Below, piece by piece: positions 40,864 through 48,693 of a DNA stretch of 64,000 bases (positions within the stretch are counted from its first letter, which is position 1; every line of letters begins with the position of its first letter). Source of the stretch: Candidatus Eiseniibacteriota bacterium (GTDB taxonomy: Bacteria > Eisenbacteria > RBG-16-71-46); assembly GCA_044222065.1 (NCBI GenBank), contig JBGAOA010000005.1, positions 1 to 64,000 on the forward strand, read 5' to 3'. Position numbers and translations under genes: made by a program. The notes under the pieces were generated by a model that saw only the letters and a list, made by a program, of their open reading frames with translations, had not been told where the DNA came from and ran no database searches.

Positions 40864-40999
40864 CCCTCTCCTCGAGCCGGGCGGATACTTCGGGCGGCAA
40901 AGCAGGCCACAACCCCTCTTTTCCAGTGCGGCCACGGGTGCTGTCCCGACGGCCGTTTCGTGTATCCGTCGTTCAATGCCAGTGAAGGAGCAGTTCCGA

Positions 41000-41317
41000 A
41001 TGCAGAGGTTGCGCAGCCAGCTCCTGATCGCACTGGTCCTCGCGGTCCTCAGCATTCCGACCGTGACCGGGATCGCGCACGCTCGAAAGAGGGTTCTTTC
41101 GGACGGCGGCGCGTCTACGTCACTGCCGGGAAGACAGTCCGGTGCGTTCTCGGGTGAACCGGACGGTCACACGGCCCCGCCGCAGAGCACTGCGCCGCGG
41201 CTGGGTGCTGGAGTCGCGGGTGGCGAAACGCAGCTGATGGTCGGCTCGAAGAGCCTCGGTCAGTGGTTTCGCTGGGCCGGCACGGTTTGGAAGGTGAGGT
41301 ACCTGGCGCGTCACTAG
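41000..41317 (+). CDS. Small secreted protein (105 aa), candidate signalling-peptide precursor
   Basis: ATG 41000 follows an AAGGAG SD. Signal peptide MQRLRSQLLIALVLAVLSIPTVTGIAHA, a Gly/Ser/Pro-rich middle with SGEPDG, and a Trp-rich amphipathic C-terminus. Confidence 0.68.
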   Translation: MQRLRSQLLIALVLAVLSIPTVTGIAHARKRVLSDGGASTSLPGRQSGAFSGEPDGHTAPPQSTAPRLGAGVAGGETQLMVGSKSLGQWFRWAGTVWKVRYLARH

Positions 41318-41422
41318 TGGTGCAACTCGATCGCGCCACCGCGCCAGTCTGTTCGCCAGACCACTCGGAACGAACCGCCGAGTGGTCCAACCGGGTTCGT
41401 AGCACAACGAGGGTTCGTCACA

Positions 41423-44400
41423 GTGCAGAGAGCGATCCCCCCCGATCTTTCTCGTGCTGACTCGCTCGCGCCGAATTCCGTTCGGCAGCACGAAGCGATC
41501 GGTGATCTGCATCTGGCCGCCGACCAATTCGCCGGCGCCGTGGAGGCCTACTCCGCGGCCCTCGCCGAACTGGGCGGCGAGCCGCGTTCGGAACGCGGCC
41601 GCCTGCTGCTCCGGCTCGCCGACGCTTCGATTCGCCGTTCCGACCTCGATCTGGCGCTGACCGCGCTCAACGAGGCTCGGGGCATCGCGCGTCAGTCGGG
41701 CGACCTCGCCCTGTCCGCACGCGCTTCCGCGTTCTTCGTGATGGTGCACCTCGAGCGCGGCAACTATCGACGAGCGCGCCGCTACGGCCTGTTCGCCTAT
41801 CGCGTGCTGCGTGGCTCCGACGATCACCGGACCGTCGGCCACGTCGAACTGCACCTCGGCGTGTGCGCCGAGATGCTCGGACGCCGGCCCGAGGCGATCG
41901 AGTGGCTGCAGAACGCCGCAGCGACCTTCCGGCGCATCGACGACGTCGAAGGTCTGGTTTGCGCGCTGAACGAACTCGGCATCGTCTACAAGAACATGCG
42001 CGAATGGCGTGAGGCGACTCGCTTCCTCGAACAGGCGCTGCGCCTCGACGAGCGCGCCGGGCTGTACGAGCGCATGCGGACGCACAATCAGAACCTCGGC
42101 CTGATTCGCTACCGTCTCGGCCAGTGGGATCTCGCGGAGGAGAACTTCCGTCAGTCGTTGCGCATCGCGCGCGAGACCGGGCACCAGGTTGGCGAAGCGA
42201 TCGCGCTCCTCGCCTTCGGCATGCTGTACCGCCGCCGCCGCCAGCTCGGGCGCGCCGCGGAGCACTACCGTTCGGCGCTCGAGATCGCGGCGCCGCTCGG
42301 CGCGTGGCGCGAGGTCGCGCTCGCGCGCGAGTTCCTCGCCGAGATCGAACTCGACCGCGGCAATGGCGCGGGTGCCATGGCGCTCCTAGAGCCCGCGCTC
42401 GAGGACGCGAACGCGCGTGCGCCGGAAGGCGACATGGCGATGGAACTGTCCATTCGCGTCGGCATGGCGCATCTCGCGAGCGGCCGCGCGGAGCCCGCGC
42501 AGCGTTACCTGCTGGCCGGCCTCGCACTGGCCGAGCAGCTCGGTGATCGCATCGAGTCCGCGATCGCTGAGCGCGCGCTCGGACGGCTCGAGGCGACGCG
42601 CGGCAACGCCGCCGCCTTCGAGACGCGCATTCGTTCGGCCGCCTCGTGCTTCGAGCAACTCGGTGAGACCTACGAACTCGCGCTCACGCTTGCGACCTGG
42701 GCCGAGGGCGCGTTCCTGCTGCCGACGAGCACACGCCTCAAGCTGCTGCTCGAACCGGTCGGCGACGCGGCCCGACGCGCGGCGACGCTGTTCCGCCAGC
42801 TCGGCATCCCATCGCTCGCCGCCGAGTGCTACCTGAACCTTTCGCGGCTCGAGTCCGAACGCGAACACTTCGATTTCGCGCTCGGTCTGCTGGAGCAGGC
42901 CGAGTCGTGGCTCGCAGAATCCGAGGATCCCGACGTCGCGGAGCGCGCGGAAGCGCTGCGGCGCGATCTCGAGCGCCAGTACGTCGCAGTCTCGCTCTCG
43001 ACCTGCAACGAATTCCGTGCGCTCGAAGACGCGAACCGGCTGTTCCGCGAGACCGCGGACATGGATGGTCTGCTGAACCAGGCGGTGCGGCTCGCCGTCG
43101 AACACGCCGGCGGTGACCGCGGATTCGTCGCGTTCACGAACGGCGGCGCGCGGCTCGACGTCGTCGCGCAGCACGGACTCGGACGCGAACGTGCGCGCCG
43201 CATCCTGCGCGTGCTCGAACAAGTCGGCGGCAGCCGGCTCGCTGAGAACGGTCCTCTGTTCTCGAGCCGAGTCACTGCCGATCCGCGGTTCTCGGTCTCG
43301 GTCGTGGACGCGCTCGATGGCGTCGGCTCGCTCGTCTGCGTCCCGCTCAACTTCCCATCGCAGTCGGTAGGACTCGTCTACGTGGATCGGCTCAACGACA
43401 GCCTGCTCGGCGCCTTCAAGCAGCGCGAGCTCAACCTGCTCGCCGTGCTCGCGAACAGCGCCGCGGTGGCGATCGTCGAAGCGCAGCGTTCACGCCTGCT
43501 CGAAGAGAATCGGCAGTTGCGTGATCGCCTCAAGCCGAGCCCCGGCATGGAGCGGGTGGTCTCTCAGTCCCGTGAGATCCAGAGCATCCTGCAGCTGCTG
43601 CAGAAGGTGAGCGACAGCCCGGCCACGGTGCTCTTCATGGGCGAGACTGGGACCGGCAAGGGGCTGCTCGCGCAGGTCGTGCACGAGAGCTCGGCGCGGC
43701 GCGACCGCCCCTTCATCCAGGTCAATTGCGCGGCGATCCCCGAGCACCTGCTCGAGAGCGAGCTGTTCGGCTACGTGCAGGGCGCCTTCACCGGCGCGAT
43801 GCGCGACAAGACCGGGCTTTTCGAGGAGGCCGAAGGCGGGACGTTGTTCCTCGATGAGATCGAGAAGATTCCCGAGACCGTGCAGGCCAAGCTTCTCCAC
43901 GTGCTGGATCGCAGCGAGATTCGCCCCGTCGGAGCGGCGCGCAGTCGACGCGTGGACACGCGAGTGATCTGCGCGACGGGATGCGATCTCCGCGATCGGA
44001 TCCGGGAGCGCCGGTTCCTCGAGGACCTGTACTACCGGCTGAACGACATCACGGTGCGCGTGCCTCCGCTTCGCGAACGCCGCGAGGACATCCCGCTCCT
44101 CGCGCAGTACTTCCTCACGAGCTTCTCGCGCCAGATGGATCGTTCGATTGCGGGCTTCTCCGCGCCCGTGATGCAGGCGCTGCTCGAGCACACGTGGCCC
44201 GGCAACGTGCGTGAGCTCGAGAAAACCGTGAAGCGCATGGTGGTGCTCGCGGATGACGGCGCGACGCTGGACGTGGATCTTCTTCCGCCCGACCTCCGGG
44301 AGAGCACGCGGCCGGCGAGCACGGAGCTTCGGGTGGTGAGCCGCACGCTCAAGTCGAACGTCGTGAATCTCGAGCGGCAGCTGATCGCCGAGGCGCTCGA

Positions 44401-44509
44401 AAGAACCCGCTGGAACAAGACGCGGGCCGCGCGTGAACTCGGGCTCAGCTATCCGACCCTGCTCGCCAAGATCCGGAGCTTCCAACTCGAGCGGCAGCGC
44501 GGCGGCTGA
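41423..44509 (+). CDS. TPR-GAF-AAA+ sigma54 enhancer-binding protein
   Basis: About 500 aa of TPR-like helices, then a GAF domain (SLVCVPL..VGLVYVDR..LANSAAVAI), GETGTGKG, ESELFGYVQGAFTGA, WPGNVREL and a C-terminal HTH. Confidence 0.92.
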   Translation: MQRAIPPDLSRADSLAPNSVRQHEAIGDLHLAADQFAGAVEAYSAALAELGGEPRSERGRLLLRLADASIRRSDLDLALTALNEARGIARQSGDLALSARASAFFVMVHLERGNYRRARRYGLFAYRVLRGSDDHRTVGHVELHLGVCAEMLGRRPEAIEWLQNAAATFRRIDDVEGLVCALNELGIVYKNMREWREATRFLEQALRLDERAGLYERMRTHNQNLGLIRYRLGQWDLAEENFRQSLRIARETGHQVGEAIALLAFGMLYRRRRQLGRAAEHYRSALEIAAPLGAWREVALAREFLAEIELDRGNGAGAMALLEPALEDANARAPEGDMAMELSIRVGMAHLASGRAEPAQRYLLAGLALAEQLGDRIESAIAERALGRLEATRGNAAAFETRIRSAASCFEQLGETYELALTLATWAEGAFLLPTSTRLKLLLEPVGDAARRAATLFRQLGIPSLAAECYLNLSRLESEREHFDFALGLLEQAESWLAESEDPDVAERAEALRRDLERQYVAVSLSTCNEFRALEDANRLFRETADMDGLLNQAVRLAVEHAGGDRGFVAFTNGGARLDVVAQHGLGRERARRILRVLEQVGGSRLAENGPLFSSRVTADPRFSVSVVDALDGVGSLVCVPLNFPSQSVGLVYVDRLNDSLLGAFKQRELNLLAVLANSAAVAIVEAQRSRLLEENRQLRDRLKPSPGMERVVSQSREIQSILQLLQKVSDSPATVLFMGETGTGKGLLAQVVHESSARRDRPFIQVNCAAIPEHLLESELFGYVQGAFTGAMRDKTGLFEEAEGGTLFLDEIEKIPETVQAKLLHVLDRSEIRPVGAARSRRVDTRVICATGCDLRDRIRERRFLEDLYYRLNDITVRVPPLRERREDIPLLAQYFLTSFSRQMDRSIAGFSAPVMQALLEHTWPGNVRELEKTVKRMVVLADDGATLDVDLLPPDLRESTRPASTELRVVSRTLKSNVVNLERQLIAEALERTRWNKTRAARELGLSYPTLLAKIRSFQLERQRGG

Positions 44510-44554
44510 CAAACAACTGAAGTCTCCGACTAGCAAGTCGCTTAATAGAAATCC

Positions 44555-44589
44555 CGAAGCCCCGCAGTCACTTAGGCTGCGGGGCTTCG
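44555..44589 (+). terminator. Strong hairpin after the activator gene
   Basis: CGAAGCCCCGCAGTC-ACTTA-GGCTGCGGGGCTTCG; it has no clear U-tract. Confidence 0.5.
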
Positions 44590-44718
44590 TCATGAAAGCG
44601 GCTTGAGGATTTCCGGTGCTTTCGTGGCTCGGAATCCTGCGCTTGTTGGATTTCGCCCATTCCAGTTAATAATTGATTAGCAAGCATTTAGGACATATTT
44701 GTGCGACGTCGCCGTTCA

Positions 44719-44734
44719 TGGCACGACGAGTGCC
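44719..44734 (+). promoter_or_regulatory. Sigma54 -24/-12 promoter (P1)
   Basis: TGGCACGACGAGTGCC, with GG(44720-21)-N10-GC(44732-33); preceded by an AT-rich tract. Confidence 0.75.
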
Positions 44735-44744
44735 TATACGTGTG

Positions 44745-45080
44745 CCTCGGAGGGGGGGGACCTCCACAAAATCCAGCAGAGCACCGCTGGAACACGATCT
44801 AGGCTAGCCGGCTCTGTAGGGCTCGGTCGAGGGTACGAGCCCCGTCATCCGACAACGTATCGAACCCTACGTCCGGCTAGCTTGGAGTGAATTCAACGGT
44901 CCGGGAAGTGGCGGGCCTGGGTGAATCGACGAAGTTCGGTCCCGGTTATCTTCGCGCGATCCCCGCTCTGCGGCTTCCCGGCTTTTCTTGCAGTCGAGAC
45001 ACCGGCTTCACGCGATACAGGCCAGCACTGGGGGATGTCCAGGCTTGTGTCTGCGACCGAGGCCGGTGTCTCACTTCTTG
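44745..45080 (+). ncRNA. Candidate structured non-coding RNA with three tandem long hairpins
   Basis: Starts at the predicted +1 of P1. Hairpins at 44798-44886, 44901-44981 and 44996-45072 contain G-U pairs that form only on the + strand. No credible ORF. Confidence 0.55.
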
Positions 45081-45229
45081 GGCCCCGGCGGCTCCCCGAC
45101 CGTGCACTGTGGCGCCCCTTGCACACCTGCGTCGCCGGCGCTGCGCGGCACCCCCTGAATCGCGGCGCAAACCGCTCAAAGCGGCCCATTTTCACTGATC
45201 TTTCCCGGCCCCGAGCCCCCGCATCTCGC

Positions 45230-45245
45230 TGGCACGTGGGTTGCC
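45230..45245 (+). promoter_or_regulatory. Sigma54 -24/-12 promoter (P2)
   Basis: TGGCACGTGGGTTGCC matches TGGCACG-N4-TTGC; it lies about 37 nt upstream of ATG 45282. Confidence 0.82.
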
Positions 45246-45281
45246 CTCCAAGCGATCGTCCATTTCACGCGAGGAGGACCC

Positions 45282-46115
45282 ATGAAAGCTCCAGTCCTGC
45301 TGATCGTCGCCGCCGCGCTGCTCGCGGGCTGTGATGACGATCATGTCTCGGCCCCCCGCGACGTCACCCCTCCGGCCGCGCCGCGGGGCGTCTACAGCGT
45401 GACCGGCGATCAGTCCGTGCGGGTCTCGTGGCTCGCGAACACCGAAATCGATGTGGCTGGCTATCGGATCTACCAGGGTCCTTGCGCCACCGGTCCTTCG
45501 TGCCCCTACGACCTCGTCGGCTCGACCACCGCCACGACCTACACCGTCACCGGACTTGCGAACGGCAGCACCCGCTACTTCGCGGTTGCGGCGTTCGACC
45601 GCGCGGGAAATGAGAGTCCGCTGTCCTACGAAGACGTCTTCGACACGCCGCGCCCTGCCGGATTCGGCGCGACGCTGGGTGATGCGGTGGACGAGCCTGC
45701 GATCAGCGGCTGGGACTTCTCCGCCGCCTCGCGCCGGGCGTGGGACCACGCGGAGACCGACGTGTACTTCAGCTACTCCGGCGGCGTCTTCCGAATGATC
45801 GCGCCCTTCACGGATACGGACATCCAGGACGCGGGATATGCGGCGAGCCTCGATGCCGTGGACTTCGCTCCCACGAGCGGCTGGTCGCCGACGGGTACGG
45901 TCGAACTGATCCCCGGACACAACTACATCGTGTGGACGTACGACGACCATTACGCCAAGTTCCGCGTCACCGCGCTCGGGCCGTCGCCCGCCCGCGTGAC
46001 GTTCGACTGGGCCTACCAGACCGCCACGAGCAACCGTGAGCTTCGGGCGCGGCGCGCACCTCACGAGGGTCCGCGCGTGCGTCGCGAGCTCGCGCAGCTC
46101 ACGGGCATCCAATGA
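45282..46115 (+). CDS. Lipoprotein with a fibronectin type III domain and a second (HmuY-like?) beta domain
   Basis: SD GAGGAGG and lipobox LLAGC. FN3 signature PPAAP..VSW..AGYRIY..GL.NG..YFAV.AFD..GNES; C-terminal HYAKFRVT..VTFDWAYQ. Confidence 0.78.
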   Translation: MKAPVLLIVAAALLAGCDDDHVSAPRDVTPPAAPRGVYSVTGDQSVRVSWLANTEIDVAGYRIYQGPCATGPSCPYDLVGSTTATTYTVTGLANGSTRYFAVAAFDRAGNESPLSYEDVFDTPRPAGFGATLGDAVDEPAISGWDFSAASRRAWDHAETDVYFSYSGGVFRMIAPFTDTDIQDAGYAASLDAVDFAPTSGWSPTGTVELIPGHNYIVWTYDDHYAKFRVTALGPSPARVTFDWAYQTATSNRELRARRAPHEGPRVRRELAQLTGIQ

Positions 46116-46291: not shown

Positions 46292-47701
46292 ATGAATCGC
46301 ACCGTCGTGCTGACCGCGCTCGGCCTCGCCCTCGCGGCCGCCGCCGCGGCTCCGGCCGGGGCGCGTGGCCTCGGCGTCGAGGTCTGGACCGACCGCGGCA
46401 ACGACGCCGTCTACCAGCCGGGGGAGCGCTTGCAGGTGAAAGCGCGCACCTCGGATGACGCCTACCTGCTCGTCTACGAAATCGATGCCGAGGGCGAGAT
46501 CCACGTGCTCTTCCCGTTCCGAGGACACCGCGACATGGTCCCGGGACACACGACGCTGCGCGTGCCCTCCGACGACGACGACGTGGACCTCGTCGTTCAG
46601 GAGCCGGTCGGTGAGTCGTTCCTCGTGGCGATCGCTTCGGAGAACGGTTTCCGCGACCTGCCGTGGTACCTGCGTCCGTACGACCCGGTCGGCGAGGCCA
46701 ATGGCTTCGTCGGGCAGACCGAAGACGAAGAAGGTGTCACGAGCGACGGTCGCATCGTGGGCGACCCGTTCGTCGCGATGGAGCGCATCCGGCGTCGCGT
46801 GCTGCTCGATCCGGACGATCGCTCGTCCTTCGCGACCGACTACACCACGTACTTCGTGCACAACCAGGTCCGATACCCGCGCTATCTCTGCTACGACTGC
46901 CACCGGCCCGGCCGATGGGAGTGGTGGGACGGGTTCGACCCCTATTACACGAGCTGCTCCGTGTTCGACTTTCGGGTGAACTGGTCTTGGGCGTGGGGGC
47001 CGAGCTACTGGTTCGGCCGAGTTCCGTACTTCGTGTACGTCTATCGCCCCAGCTGCCCGCCGCGCTATCAGCACTGGGCGGGTTCGGGCACCTGGTACTC
47101 CTCGTGGGACGGCTGGCGCCATTGGAACGACTTGTGGGGCACGGGCACGCTCCGGCGCTACAAGTCCGCACCGCCGACGGCCTACGTTCCGCCGACCAAG
47201 TTCCGCACCTCCGAGCGGCTGGGTCCCGCGCGCCAGTTGCCTCCGGGCTTCGTTCAGGACAGTCCGTCTCGCCGGTCGTTCGACCGTGCGCTGCCCCCCC
47301 GTGGCGGTGTGGCGCGCCGCGACGATCGGCAGGAATCCAGCGGGGAGCCGCGTCGCGAACGCGCCGCGGATCGCGGCTGGGGACGCATCTTCGATCGCAC
47401 CGAGGTCCGCCGCACGCCGGCCGCTCGCGCGCCGCAGGACGAGGGTTCGTCTCGTCCCGCGCCGTCGACCGACTACGGCCGGGGACGCGAGCGCGATTCG
47501 GGTGATTCGCGGCCGGCGCCGTCGTACAATCCGCCGCCTCAGAAGCAAGAGCCGCGGCACGAGCCCGCACGCGAGCCGGCGCGCGAGCCCGCGCGCGAAC
47601 AGCGCCACGAGCGGGCGCCCGATCCGCAGCCGCAAAAGGCATCGCCGCCACCCCCGCCGCCCAAGTCCGATGGCGGAGGCGGGCGAGGAGGCAAGAGATA
47701 A
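46292..47701 (+). CDS. Exported DUF4384-like protein with a CxxCH motif, a Trp/Tyr-rich segment and a disordered tail
   Basis: SD GGAGG and a signal peptide; VEVWTDRG..VYQPGE..YLLVYEIDAEGEIHVLFP; CYDCH; EPAR repeats. Confidence 0.72.
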   Translation: MNRTVVLTALGLALAAAAAAPAGARGLGVEVWTDRGNDAVYQPGERLQVKARTSDDAYLLVYEIDAEGEIHVLFPFRGHRDMVPGHTTLRVPSDDDDVDLVVQEPVGESFLVAIASENGFRDLPWYLRPYDPVGEANGFVGQTEDEEGVTSDGRIVGDPFVAMERIRRRVLLDPDDRSSFATDYTTYFVHNQVRYPRYLCYDCHRPGRWEWWDGFDPYYTSCSVFDFRVNWSWAWGPSYWFGRVPYFVYVYRPSCPPRYQHWAGSGTWYSSWDGWRHWNDLWGTGTLRRYKSAPPTAYVPPTKFRTSERLGPARQLPPGFVQDSPSRRSFDRALPPRGGVARRDDRQESSGEPRRERAADRGWGRIFDRTEVRRTPAARAPQDEGSSRPAPSTDYGRGRERDSGDSRPAPSYNPPPQKQEPRHEPAREPAREPAREQRHERAPDPQPQKASPPPPPPKSDGGGGRGGKR

Positions 47702-47775
47702 TCGTTCGAAGCGCGTGATGCGCGCGGGCGGCGCCGGAGGACCCGGCGCCGTTCCGTCATTCCGATCGAGGGTGC

Positions 47776-48693
47776 ATGAACGTCCGAAACGTCGCGCTGT
47801 TCGCATCACTCACCCTCGTCGCGCTCGCGGGCGTCGCGTCCGCTGGCACGCCGGGGTTCGCCTTCCTCGAGACGCCGAGCGGCGCCCGCGCGTCCGCGAC
47901 CGGCGGCGCAGGCGTGACGCTCGCCGAAGGCGCCGAGGCCGCGTTCTGGAATCCCGCCGCGCTCGATCGCGCGGAACGCCTCGAGATCGCGGGAAGTCAC
48001 TTCGAGATGTATCAGGCGCTGCGTCACGAGGACTTCGTGGTCGCGGGTCCGGCGTTCGGCGGCGGGATCGCGGCGTCGTTCCGCGCGCTCTATTCCGAGC
48101 CGATCGAGGAGCGTGACGATCTCGGCAACCTCGTCGGCACGTTCGGAGCGCACGACCTCGAGTTCGCGCTCGGCTACGGGGCGCGCGTCGCGAACGAGGT
48201 GCGCGTCGGACTCACCGGCGCGCTCGTACGCGAGCGCATCGCGGACAAGGCCGCGCAGACCTGGGCCGTGCACACCGGTCTCTCTTGGGACCCGGCACGC
48301 TGGCCGGGGCTGCGCCTCGCGGTCGCGGGGCAGAACCTCGGCCCGGCCGGCGCGTTCGCGCTCGATGGCGTGCGTGGCGAGGACGTCGCGCTACCGGCGG
48401 CCCTGCAGGGTGGAGCCTCGTACGCGCGCACCGTCGCGACGAGCTGGACGCTGCGCGGGGCGCTCGAAACCCGGCTCACGCGCGGCCGAACGGGGATCGG
48501 CATCGTCGGCGCCGAGCTCTCGAATCCCGCGGGGCTCGCGGCGCGCGCCGGCGTGCGGCTGAACGACGACGTTTCGTCGCTCGCGTTCGGCGTCGGCTAC
48601 CGCGTGTCGTCGCTGCGCCTCGACTACGCCTACGTTCCTTCGCGACTCGACCTCGAGGACACGCACCGGCTGTCCTTCGCCGCACACTTCTGA
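47776..48693 (+). CDS. PorV/PorQ-like (FadL-fold) outer-membrane protein
   Basis: Signal peptide, FLETPSGARASATGGA, FWNPAAL and LDYAY..DTHRLSFAAHF. Confidence 0.8.
   Translation: MNVRNVALFASLTLVALAGVASAGTPGFAFLETPSGARASATGGAGVTLAEGAEAAFWNPAALDRAERLEIAGSHFEMYQALRHEDFVVAGPAFGGGIAASFRALYSEPIEERDDLGNLVGTFGAHDLEFALGYGARVANEVRVGLTGALVRERIADKAAQTWAVHTGLSWDPARWPGLRLAVAGQNLGPAGAFALDGVRGEDVALPAALQGGASYARTVATSWTLRGALETRLTRGRTGIGIVGAELSNPAGLAARAGVRLNDDVSSLAFGVGYRVSSLRLDYAYVPSRLDLEDTHRLSFAAHF

What the first reader, a model, noticed from the sequence alone, without database searches (positions are those of the whole stretch)
44745..45080. Sigma54-driven candidate ncRNA with three tandem 75-90-nt hairpins
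H1: TCTAGGCTAGCCGG (44798-44811) pairs with CCGGCTAGCTTGGA (44873-44886), and GTAGGGCTCGGT pairs with ATCGAACCCTAC. H2: CCGGGAAGT (44901-44909) pairs with GCTTCCCGG (44973-44981), with inner ATCG/CGAT and CGAAG/CTTCG stems. H3: GAGACACCGGCTTC (44996-45009) pairs with GAGGCCGGTGTCTC (45059-45072), and CGCGATACAGGCC pairs with GGCTTGTGTCTGCG. Most imperfections are G-U pairs on the + strand, which argues for RNA-level structure on the strand that P1 would transcribe. H2 and H3 are each followed by TTCTTG. The hairpins share shape but not sequence, like an array of processable dsRNA units. Two small hairpins precede them (44749-44765 and 44772-44791). Function is unknown.
Basis: partly seen in the sequence, partly recalled or inferred. 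Interest (0 to 1): 0.82.

Follow-up and report, generated by a model that had tools for sequence, protein, structure and literature searches.

The report
Sigma-54 feedback RNA of Eisenbacteria
An undescribed folded RNA of about 335 bases, found across an uncultured bacterial phylum, sits behind its likely activator gene and appears to base-pair with the start of that activator's own message, which would make a feedback loop.

Summary
The hairpins are real and belong to a conserved non-coding RNA gene (about 44745-45080) of Candidatus Eisenbacteria. The stems covary, no reading frame is conserved, and it is single-copy. RNA-library contigs from 4 studies cover it. Promoter plus 5' hairpin occur in 164 of 206 phylum genomes, directly behind a TPR-GAF sigma-54 activator in 100 of 101 testable loci. 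Rfam and four paper searches found nothing. Best reading: the G-rich 5' hairpin loop pairs with a C-rich site near the activator's start codon, giving negative feedback. That site is synonymously frozen in the window's order. In distant families with changed hairpins it changes to match (cognate 6.9 vs permuted 5.7 bp, p=0.0002). Four families show no site of 7 bp or more, and pairing and direction are untested. 'Processable array' is unproven: modules are separable, but the TTCTTG tail is not conserved. This scan reported the same RNA before on other genomes (three notes).

The parts
44719..44733 (+). Sigma-54 -24/-12 promoter P1 of the RNA; predicted +1 about 44745
   Evidence: Motif at 44719. 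The -12 to 5' hairpin spacing is 13-15 nt in 131 of 131 loci although the pattern allowed 10-18. The sigma-54 consensus and +1 rule are recalled.
44745..45080 (+). The ncRNA gene, about 335 nt (relatives 255-943 nt, median 343, n=75)
   Evidence: RNA-library contigs with 0 other letters span 44753-45063 in 4 runs of 4 studies.
44749..44765 (+). 5' hairpin GGAGG / G-rich loop / CCUCC; proposed seed for the activator mRNA
   Evidence: Present in 17 of 18 families, 10 by exact pattern and 7 as variants. Loop G's and A predicted unpaired. Complement near the activator start.
44772..44791 (+). Small variable hairpin, not conserved in sequence or length
44798..44886 (+). H1: long stem capped by a branched top with a conserved GGG-UACGAG-CCC hairpin; partner unknown
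   Evidence: Outer stem plus inner hairpin 98.8% paired, 5 of 17 pairs with both-side changes, 0 of 500 shuffles. Variable inner stem: cognate arms -12.4 vs swapped -8.4 kcal/mol, 0 of 10000 permutations.
44901..44981 (+). H2: sequence-variable stem whose apical loop often carries CCCGGY (here 44940-44947), complementary to the activator leader at 41390-41396
   Evidence: Co-presence with the leader motif is not significant (p=0.15).
44996..45072 (+). H3: covarying stem with an invariant GGGGGAUG loop segment (loop 45028-45035), last module before a U-rich tail; separable from the rest in some lineages
   Evidence: 16 of 23 pairs with both-side changes, 0 of 500 shuffles. Core found in distant families.
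45108..45146 (.). Conserved block after the RNA; read as a DNA upstream activator site for P2, not RNA (inference)
   Evidence: Found in 46 of 61 loci, 119-179 bp upstream of P2, while the H3-to-P2 distance in those loci varies 181-340 bp.
45230..45244 (+). Second sigma-54 promoter P2 for the Fn3 lipoprotein gene
   Evidence: RNA contigs of 3 of 4 runs begin at 45269-45276.
41423..44509 (+). TPR-GAF-AAA+-HTH sigma-54 activator; inferred driver of P1 and proposed target of the RNA
   Evidence: Pfam; below every named NCBIfam cut-off shown; directly upstream in 100 of 101 testable loci.
41435..41443 (+). Proposed target: A-U-C7 at activator codons 5-7, with six C's in a predicted hairpin loop
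   Evidence: C6-7 run in 38 of 38 order-level orthologs; Pro-Pro as CCC-CCC in 33 of 38 vs 48 of 2640 genome-wide. Unpaired probability 0.99.
41359..41417 (+). Structured activator leader: covarying hairpin whose loop (41371-41376) pairs with 41412-41417 at the Shine-Dalgarno; ACCGGGU linker at 41390-41396
   Evidence: Hairpin covaries. Pseudoknot: 5 of 6 pairs with both-side changes, 0 of 500 shuffles.
45282..46115 (+). Downstream Fn3-domain lipoprotein gene
   Evidence: Pfam fn3; downstream in 89 of 96 testable loci.

Best explanation
It is a standalone sigma-54-dependent regulatory RNA, with no Hfq found in the genome, wired as a feedback loop on its own activator. Shown: a conserved, covarying, non-coding structured RNA gene with a sigma-54 motif at fixed spacing, directly behind a TPR-GAF sigma-54 activator. 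Also shown: a C-rich complement of the 5' hairpin loop near the activator's start codon that is synonymously frozen in this order and follows hairpin sequence changes in distant families. Inferred: the activator fires P1. The RNA's exposed G-rich loop makes a loop-loop contact with the C-rich site (here codons 5-7, possibly helped by the H2 loop pairing at -33 to -27) and blocks ribosome loading, so activator synthesis is damped (negative feedback). Repression is preferred because in several families the site lies on the Shine-Dalgarno-to-start spacer. H1 and H3 are conserved beyond what this target explains and probably bind other RNAs or a protein (unknown).
For: Real RNA. Distribution and synteny. 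Target in own order: C6-7 run in 38 of 38, CCC-CCC 33 of 38 vs 48 of 2640 genome-wide and 2 of 45 elsewhere in the same genes; two orthologs keep the run with Thr instead of Ile. The target C's lie in a predicted loop, duplex -19.5 kcal/mol. A complement of 7 bp or more in the activator start region: f1 33/33, f3 6/6, f16 6/9, f6 1/1, f5 1/1, f2 1/3, against 1.3-1.4% of 1200 own start regions. Lineages with altered hairpins: cognate seed ties or wins in 9 of 14 loci; group mean 6.88 vs 5.65 bp permuted, p=0.0002 over 8 groups; the six newly fetched families combine to p=6e-4. All 4 loci with the extra-A loop have UUCCCCC. In f11 an invariant loop CACCGGC faces G(C/U)CGG in the SD-AUG spacer in 11 of 11, vs 80 of 3356 own genes. 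Precedent: Qrr sRNAs repress luxO (PMC3262071 passages); sRNAs can repress within a five-codon window (PMC9486967 passages).
Against: No site of 7 bp or more in f11 (0/11; 6 bp in 6/11), f10 (0/7), f15 (0/4) or f18 (0/2). f17 is not significant and f13 matches only with a G-U pair. With whole-hairpin and H3-loop seeds the activator ranks only 243rd and 1439th of 3303 own start regions by duplex energy, though it is in the top 0.6% of 700 with the loop-plus-3'-arm seed. H2-loop/leader co-presence is not significant: 22 of 33 concordant, p=0.15. The C run can also pair in cis with the activator's own Shine-Dalgarno, which could explain its conservation in f1 without the RNA. Start codons for distant loci were picked by hand, seeds are partly nested, and families are related. 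No pairing, direction or activator-promoter link was measured.
Confidence: 0.6

Rival explanations
1. Same pairing, opposite sign: the RNA activates the activator by pulling the C run off the Shine-Dalgarno (anti-antisense, positive feedback).
For: The consensus fold of 33 f1 leaders pairs the Shine-Dalgarno with the C run, and the leader has a covarying loop-to-SD pseudoknot, so translation looks structure-gated.
Against: In f5, f6, f9, f16 (extra-A lineage) and f11 the complementary site is the SD-start spacer itself, where pairing would occlude the ribosome. The SD:C-run helix does not covary. The window's own leader folds with the C's in a loop.
Confidence: 0.1
2. A precursor cut (for example by RNase III) into separate small RNAs H1, H2, H3 with different jobs. 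It is compatible with the best explanation.
For: Families carry different module sets. H2 is nearly absent in some. A protein-coding gene lies between the 5' modules and H3 in L030 and in f10/f18. H1 and H3 have long sequence-conserved basal stems. RNase III is present.
Against: Single RNA-library contigs run from H1 through H2 into H3 in 4 of 4 runs, so joined molecules exist if these are transcripts. The TTCTTG tail is not conserved. Contigs cannot show ends.
Confidence: 0.3
3. A protein sponge, most plausibly for CsrA, via GGA-containing loops (H3 resembles the CsrA SELEX hairpin).
For: CsrA is found in 55 of 61 relatives and FliW is not found in the own genome. Both exposed loops end in GGA. 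H3 closes with A/GCA...GGAUGU, like RUACARGGAUGU (PMC7652899 passage).
Against: Only 2 of 6 GGA are exposed and there is no ANGGA, vs 22 GGA in CsrB. H3 is kept in f4, f6 and f10, where CsrA was not found (86-98% complete genomes). CsrA is present in a genome that lacks the RNA beside its Fn3 gene. It does not explain complementary changes in the activator mRNA.
Confidence: 0.1
4. A cis-acting leader or attenuator for the downstream lipoprotein operon.
For: The Fn3 gene is downstream in 89 of 96 loci. H3 ends in a U-rich tail in 42 of 66.
Against: The downstream gene has its own sigma-54 promoter and upstream site. In f10/f18 the 5' modules precede a different gene. No ligand-switch-like alternative fold was sought or seen.
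Confidence: 0.06
5. DNA-level repeat or chance folding in a 72% GC genome.
For: High GC favours stable folds.
Against: Single copy, z -5, G-U-rich covarying stems favouring one strand, RNA contigs.
Confidence: 0.02

Closest known systems
Qrr sRNAs with LuxO (Vibrio)
   Same: An sRNA driven by a regulator represses that regulator's mRNA by base pairing in a negative feedback loop (PMC3262071 passages). LuxO is a sigma-54 activator (NCBIfam description).
   Different: Qrr need Hfq; Hfq was not found here (94% complete). This RNA is much longer (Qrr size recalled), modular, single-copy, and uses a G-rich hairpin loop. No Rfam match. The activator is a one-component TPR-GAF protein scoring 248 vs the LuxO cut-off of 800.
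Pxr (Myxococcus and relatives, RF01812)
   Same: An sRNA gene just downstream of a sigma-54 activator, with its own sigma-54 promoter, a multi-stem-loop fold and a functional first loop; processed long and short forms (PMC5568312 passages; PMC5684412 part 1 of 4).
   Different: Pxr is 108 nt, its first loop is C-rich (read from the antisense primer and probe) where this one is G-rich, and its activator is a response regulator. The Pxr model does not hit the RNA; a 20.6-bit hit (gathering 80, E 0.38) falls on the hairpin at 44500-44596 outside it.
CrcZ/CrcY with CbrB (Pseudomonadaceae)
   Same: A regulatory RNA in its own transcription unit right after a sigma-54 activator, with a sigma-N promoter and conserved synteny (PMC8871633 passages).
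   Different: CrcZ sequesters Hfq/Crc. Here Hfq was not found, the A-rich AANAANAA motif (recalled) is absent in 72 of 75 RNAs, and this RNA is 17.6% A.
CsrB/RsmY/RsmZ family
   Same: GGA exposed in hairpin loops; the host encodes CsrA.
   Different: Only two exposed GGA, no ANGGA, and distribution does not follow CsrA.

Membership tests
Any Rfam family | Score at or above a family's gathering threshold | tested here: not met
   Whole window: only one tRNA. E-value scan of 44500-45300: 3 weak hits, none on 44745-45080. 6 distant loci: 0.
Qrr | Hfq-dependent pairing | tested here: not met
   PF17209 not found in own genome, 94% complete.
Qrr | Pairs with and represses its own sigma-54 activator's mRNA | tested here: inconclusive
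   Conserved and co-changing complementarity; pairing and sign not measurable here.
Pxr | Downstream of a sigma-54 activator with own sigma-54 promoter | tested here: met
Pxr | Match to RF01812; C-rich first loop; about 108 nt | tested here: not met
Pxr | Processing into long and short forms | not testable with these tools
   Only contigs were available.
CrcZ/CrcY | Downstream of a sigma-54 activator, sigma-54 promoter | tested here: met
CrcZ/CrcY | A-rich Hfq-binding repeats and an Hfq host | tested here: not met
   (motif recalled; not in the passages read).
CsrB/RsmY/RsmZ | Many exposed (A)NGGA sites | tested here: not met
   0 ANGGA, 2 of 6 GGA exposed; CsrB has 22 GGA.
CsrB/RsmY/RsmZ | Host encodes CsrA | tested here: met
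6S RNA / Y RNA | Being the genome's 6S; a Ro60/TROVE partner | tested here: not met
   6S lies on contig C26; TROVE not found.
Dispersed repeat (REP-like) | Many genomic copies | tested here: not met
   blastn best non-self hit 22 nt, E 0.063; H3 model finds one place in own genome.

The most novel reading that the evidence does not exclude
The locus is the core of an undescribed peptide-sensing circuit of the whole phylum. A secreted pre-peptide with a conserved G(E/D)PD-type core, encoded just upstream, is sensed by the TPR-GAF sigma-54 activator. The activator turns on a modular RNA cassette whose 5' hairpin shuts the activator off by chaperone-free loop-loop pairing. The other modules are exchangeable, can flank protein genes, and are released as separate regulators.
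Probability: 0.2. Interest if true: 0.82.

Novelty: new variant of a known kind. Interest (0 to 1): 0.62.

Why it matters
It would be a phylum-wide regulatory RNA family for an uncultured lineage, with a named, testable target. Most new RNA motifs have no target; here sequence changes in the RNA's loop are mirrored in the activator mRNA across families, and a two-plasmid reporter with compensatory mutations can test this. It would extend the sigma-54 activator / sRNA feedback design known from Vibrio to a lineage where Hfq was not found. Its changing module content makes it a natural case for studying how sRNA genes gain and lose domains.

Tried and rejected
tRNA/T-loop mimicry: the H1 top resembles a tRNA T-arm (weak blastn hit), but the loop varies freely in f3, so rejected. 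Protein coding: module distances fall evenly over the three frames (23/26/26 and 24/34/27). H3 loop pairing with H1's CCCC(R)GUC: no compensatory change seen by eye, and H3 persists in families where no H1 was recognised. General anti-Shine-Dalgarno action: GGAGG is followed by UCCC in only 12 of 823 own start regions, among a generally pyrimidine-rich set. C-rich words are enriched near starts, so further targets are not excluded. A long trans target for H3: none stood out among 1164 seed sites. 16S rRNA as H3 target: the relevant part was not found in the own assembly and a recalled pattern found nothing in 5 genomes; untested. The block at 45108-45146 was first taken as a fourth RNA domain and rejected because it tracks P2. 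Phage carriage: 0 exact matches to the H3 core in viral contigs. Uncovered stretches (44448-44690 and 45096-45257 in all 4 runs; most of the activator gene) are not used as evidence: the runs are unstranded contigs chosen for holding this stretch, and no DNA run was laid. The gene inserted between modules in f10 was searched in the own genome with only a 115-aa piece, no hit; inconclusive. IHF-like sites (recalled consensus, 2 mismatches allowed) in 45 of 83 spacers were not controlled and are not claimed. My working notes said 11 of 18 families and that f14 lacks the locus; the calls give 10 of 18 by exact pattern and 2 of 5 checked f14 genomes with the RNA.

Full report
Observation. H1 has 12 WC + 2 G-U of 14 outer pairs, H2 8 + 1 of 9, H3 13 + 1 of 14, and TTCTTG follows H2 and H3 at 44985 and 45075. 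The + strand folds at z -5.02 and the - strand at -3.89. The region lies between a TPR-GAF-AAA+-HTH sigma-54 activator (41423-44509) and an Fn3 lipoprotein gene (45282-46115), with sigma-54 motifs at 44719 and 45230 (consensus recalled). It is single-copy in the genome. Rfam has nothing on it at gathering or E-value level, nor on 6 distant loci.

Distribution. The spacer has DNA matches in 36 of 36 same-family genomes. Of 80 titled rows, 56 name Eisenbacteria, 18 are unnamed bacteria and 6 name other phyla. Those 6 carry the same RNA types behind the same activator, so I read them as mislabelled; one unnamed row (L060) is a chance match in a gene. The window is therefore inferred to be Eisenbacteria. 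Because the scan was cut, occurrence outside the phylum is not excluded. Across the phylum the pattern hits 164 of 206 genomes and 10 of 18 families, once per genome bar one, with 0 control matches. In the 8 negative families I looked beside the Fn3 gene. Variant promoters or hairpins were present in f7, f8, f9, f12, f13 and f17, and in 2 of 5 checked f14 genomes; f4 showed only the H3 core. The activator is directly upstream in 100 of 101 testable loci and the Fn3 gene downstream in 89 of 96. The -12 element sits 13-15 nt before the hairpin in 131 of 131 loci, so the hairpin is the 5' end of the predicted transcript.

It is an RNA. H3: 16 of 23 pairs show both-side changes, 92.4% of cells pair, 0 of 500 shuffles reach this, and slid controls give 30-40% (66 distinct sequences). 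H1 outer stem and inner hairpin: 5 of 17 pairs, 98.8% paired. The variable inner H1 stem pairs better with its own partner arm than with swapped arms (-12.4 vs -8.4 kcal/mol, 81 arm pairs, 0 of 10000 permutations). Related genomes inflate such controls. The + strand folds better in 21 of 22 sampled relatives. Module spacings show no frame preference. Fourteen RNA runs hold 0.28-0.39 of the words of a 1-kb query; I laid 4, from 4 studies. Each has one contig with no other letters: 44757-45054, 44753-45034, 44761-45036 and 44761-45063. In two the letters before the start look like sequencing adapter (recalled). In 3 of 4 runs a second contig begins at 45269-45276, just after P2. These are unstranded contigs and no DNA run was laid, so they show presence in RNA libraries and that the modules are joined, not strand, level or exact ends.

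Anatomy. The 5' hairpin is nearly universal. H1, H2 and H3 are the module set of this order (85 of 132 non-redundant loci carry H1); other families carry one to three different or diverged modules. The H3 core is found in f1, f3, f4, f5, f6, f7, f9, f10, f16 and f18. In f10, f18 and locus L030 a protein gene lies between the 5' modules and H3, so H3 is separable. TTCTTG is not conserved (7 of 66 after H3), a U-rich tail is (42 of 66). A conserved block at 45108-45146 stays 119-179 bp from P2 in 46 of 61 loci while its distance from H3 varies; I read it as P2's upstream activator site.

Target. An earlier scan note (e1-3678191) suggested pairing with the activator's mRNA start, and I tested it. 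In 38 of 38 order-level orthologs (L188 and L204 left out) a C6-7 run sits at nt +14 to +21. Its Pro-Pro is CCC-CCC in 33 of 38, against 48 of 2640 genome-wide and 2 of 45 elsewhere in the same genes, and two orthologs keep the run with a different preceding residue. In the window's leader six of these C's are in a predicted loop and pair with the 5' loop at -19.5 kcal/mol. A Watson-Crick complement of 7 bp or more within -25 to +70 occurs in f1 33/33, f3 6/6, f16 6/9, f6 1/1, f5 1/1 and f2 1/3. It is absent in f11 0/11, f10 0/7, f15 0/4 and f18 0/2; the background is 1.3-1.4% (truncated L188, L229, L247, L261 left out; distant start codons chosen by hand). I then fetched families whose hairpin sequence differs. 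The activator region held the matching complement in f12 (9 bp WC), f9 (8), f8 (7) and f7 (6 and 6, not significant alone), and UUCCCCC in all 4 extra-A loci. f13 matched only with a G-U pair and f17 not at all. Over 14 loci in 8 groups the cognate mean was 6.88 bp vs 5.65 permuted, p=0.0002; four of the 14 (window, L231, L232, L238) had been seen before. The six newly fetched families alone combine to p=6e-4. Left out of that test: L298 and L305 (no hairpin identified), L299, L300, L303, L304, L306, L307, L309 (start not in the locus) and L308 (no activator). In f11 a different invariant loop faces the SD-AUG spacer in 11 of 11 (background 80 of 3356). In this window the H2 loop complements 41390-41396, a 7-mer found at that position in 2 of 3314 own genes, but its co-presence with the H2 motif is not significant (22 of 33, p=0.15).

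Against. By raw duplex energy the activator ranked 243rd and 1439th of 3303 start regions with the first seeds tried. The f1 leader is itself structured: a covarying hairpin, a covarying loop-to-SD pseudoknot (5 of 6 pairs, 0 of 500 shuffles) and a possible SD:C-run helix. So a cis explanation of the C run, or an activating mechanism, remains open. H1 and H3 conservation is not explained by this target, and no other target stood out.

Mechanism. Most likely (0.6) the activator drives P1 and the RNA represses activator translation through loop-loop pairing at or near the ribosome site. The activator-P1 link, the pairing and its sign are all inferred. Protein partners: Hfq, FliW and TROVE were not found in the 94%-complete genome; 6S, CsrA and RNase III were. 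A CsrA sponge fits poorly: 2 exposed GGA and no ANGGA, and H3 persists where CsrA was not found.

Comparison. The layout is that of Pxr (PMC5568312, passages; PMC5684412, part 1 of 4) and CrcZ (PMC8871633, passages). The proposed logic is that of Qrr on luxO (PMC3262071, passages). CsrA site features are from PMC7652899 (passages) and the five-codon window from PMC9486967 (passages). It fails membership of all of these. Four paper searches (listings only) found no description; five motif strings gave 0 papers. The library lacks most subscription papers and I read no supplements, where large motif catalogues could list it. Three earlier scan notes describe this RNA on other genomes; they are not independent evidence. 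One genome used, G038, is unpublished: it supplies L040 (one row in each of the H1 and H3 alignments) and L199 (1 of 6 f3 and 1 of 38 order-level activator starts); no conclusion depends on it.

Verdict. A real, undescribed, nearly phylum-wide sigma-54 RNA family with a specific and testable feedback target. New variant of a known kind; interest 0.62.

Noticed in passing
window 40976-41317 (+): Small ORF just upstream of the activator: signal-peptide-like start, a G(E/D)PD-type core and a hydrophobic, often W-rich tail. A similar ORF was printed for all 26 loci examined across 10 families, most with the core; no NCBIfam hit. Possible peptide-signal precursor for the TPR domain.
   Followed up: partly
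window 41359-41417 (+): The activator leader has a covarying hairpin and loop-to-SD pseudoknot: an undescribed cis-regulatory element. Its SD-adjacent word GAGGGUUCG resembles the H1 top GAGGGUACG.
   Followed up: partly
window 44555-44589: Strong hairpin after the activator stop codon without a U tract; source of three weak Rfam hits. Probably ends the activator transcript.
   Followed up: no
G000:C121:9151-13600: csrA is followed by an ORF that looks like FlgM (by eye), a PAS kinase-like gene, sigma-54 response regulators and a MinD/FlhG-like ATPase, with no fliW found. CsrA scores are nearly identical across the order; its antagonist is unknown.
   Followed up: partly
L030 (between H2 and H3): A gene for a small secreted Cys-rich protein is inserted inside the RNA locus.
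   Followed up: no
L269, L272 (f18, f10): About 1.7-1.9 kb with a probable AAA ATPase gene separates the 5' modules from H3, leaving H3 in a 3' UTR position.
   Followed up: partly
L043 about 3845 (- strand count) and L044 about 3918: A 12-of-13 complement of the H3 loop about 1.35 kb downstream on the sense strand in two f3 genomes; possible H3 target.
   Followed up: no
L211-L214, L221, L222: Paralogous TPR-GAF activators, several also preceded by ORFs with hydrophobic tails; none of the 6 showed a C run at the start codon.
   Followed up: partly
window 46292-48693: DUF4384 protein and a PorV/PorQ-family gene follow the Fn3 lipoprotein: an envelope/secretion-type operon under P2.
   Followed up: no
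L058, L077, L086, L093, L096, L115: Records titled with other phyla carry Eisenbacteria-type RNA and flanking genes; likely mislabelled or misbinned.
   Followed up: partly
L276, L278, L308 (f14): No activator was found in the 1.5-2.8 kb upstream of the Fn3 gene in 3 of 5 f14 genomes checked, suggesting loss or relocation of the module.
   Followed up: partly
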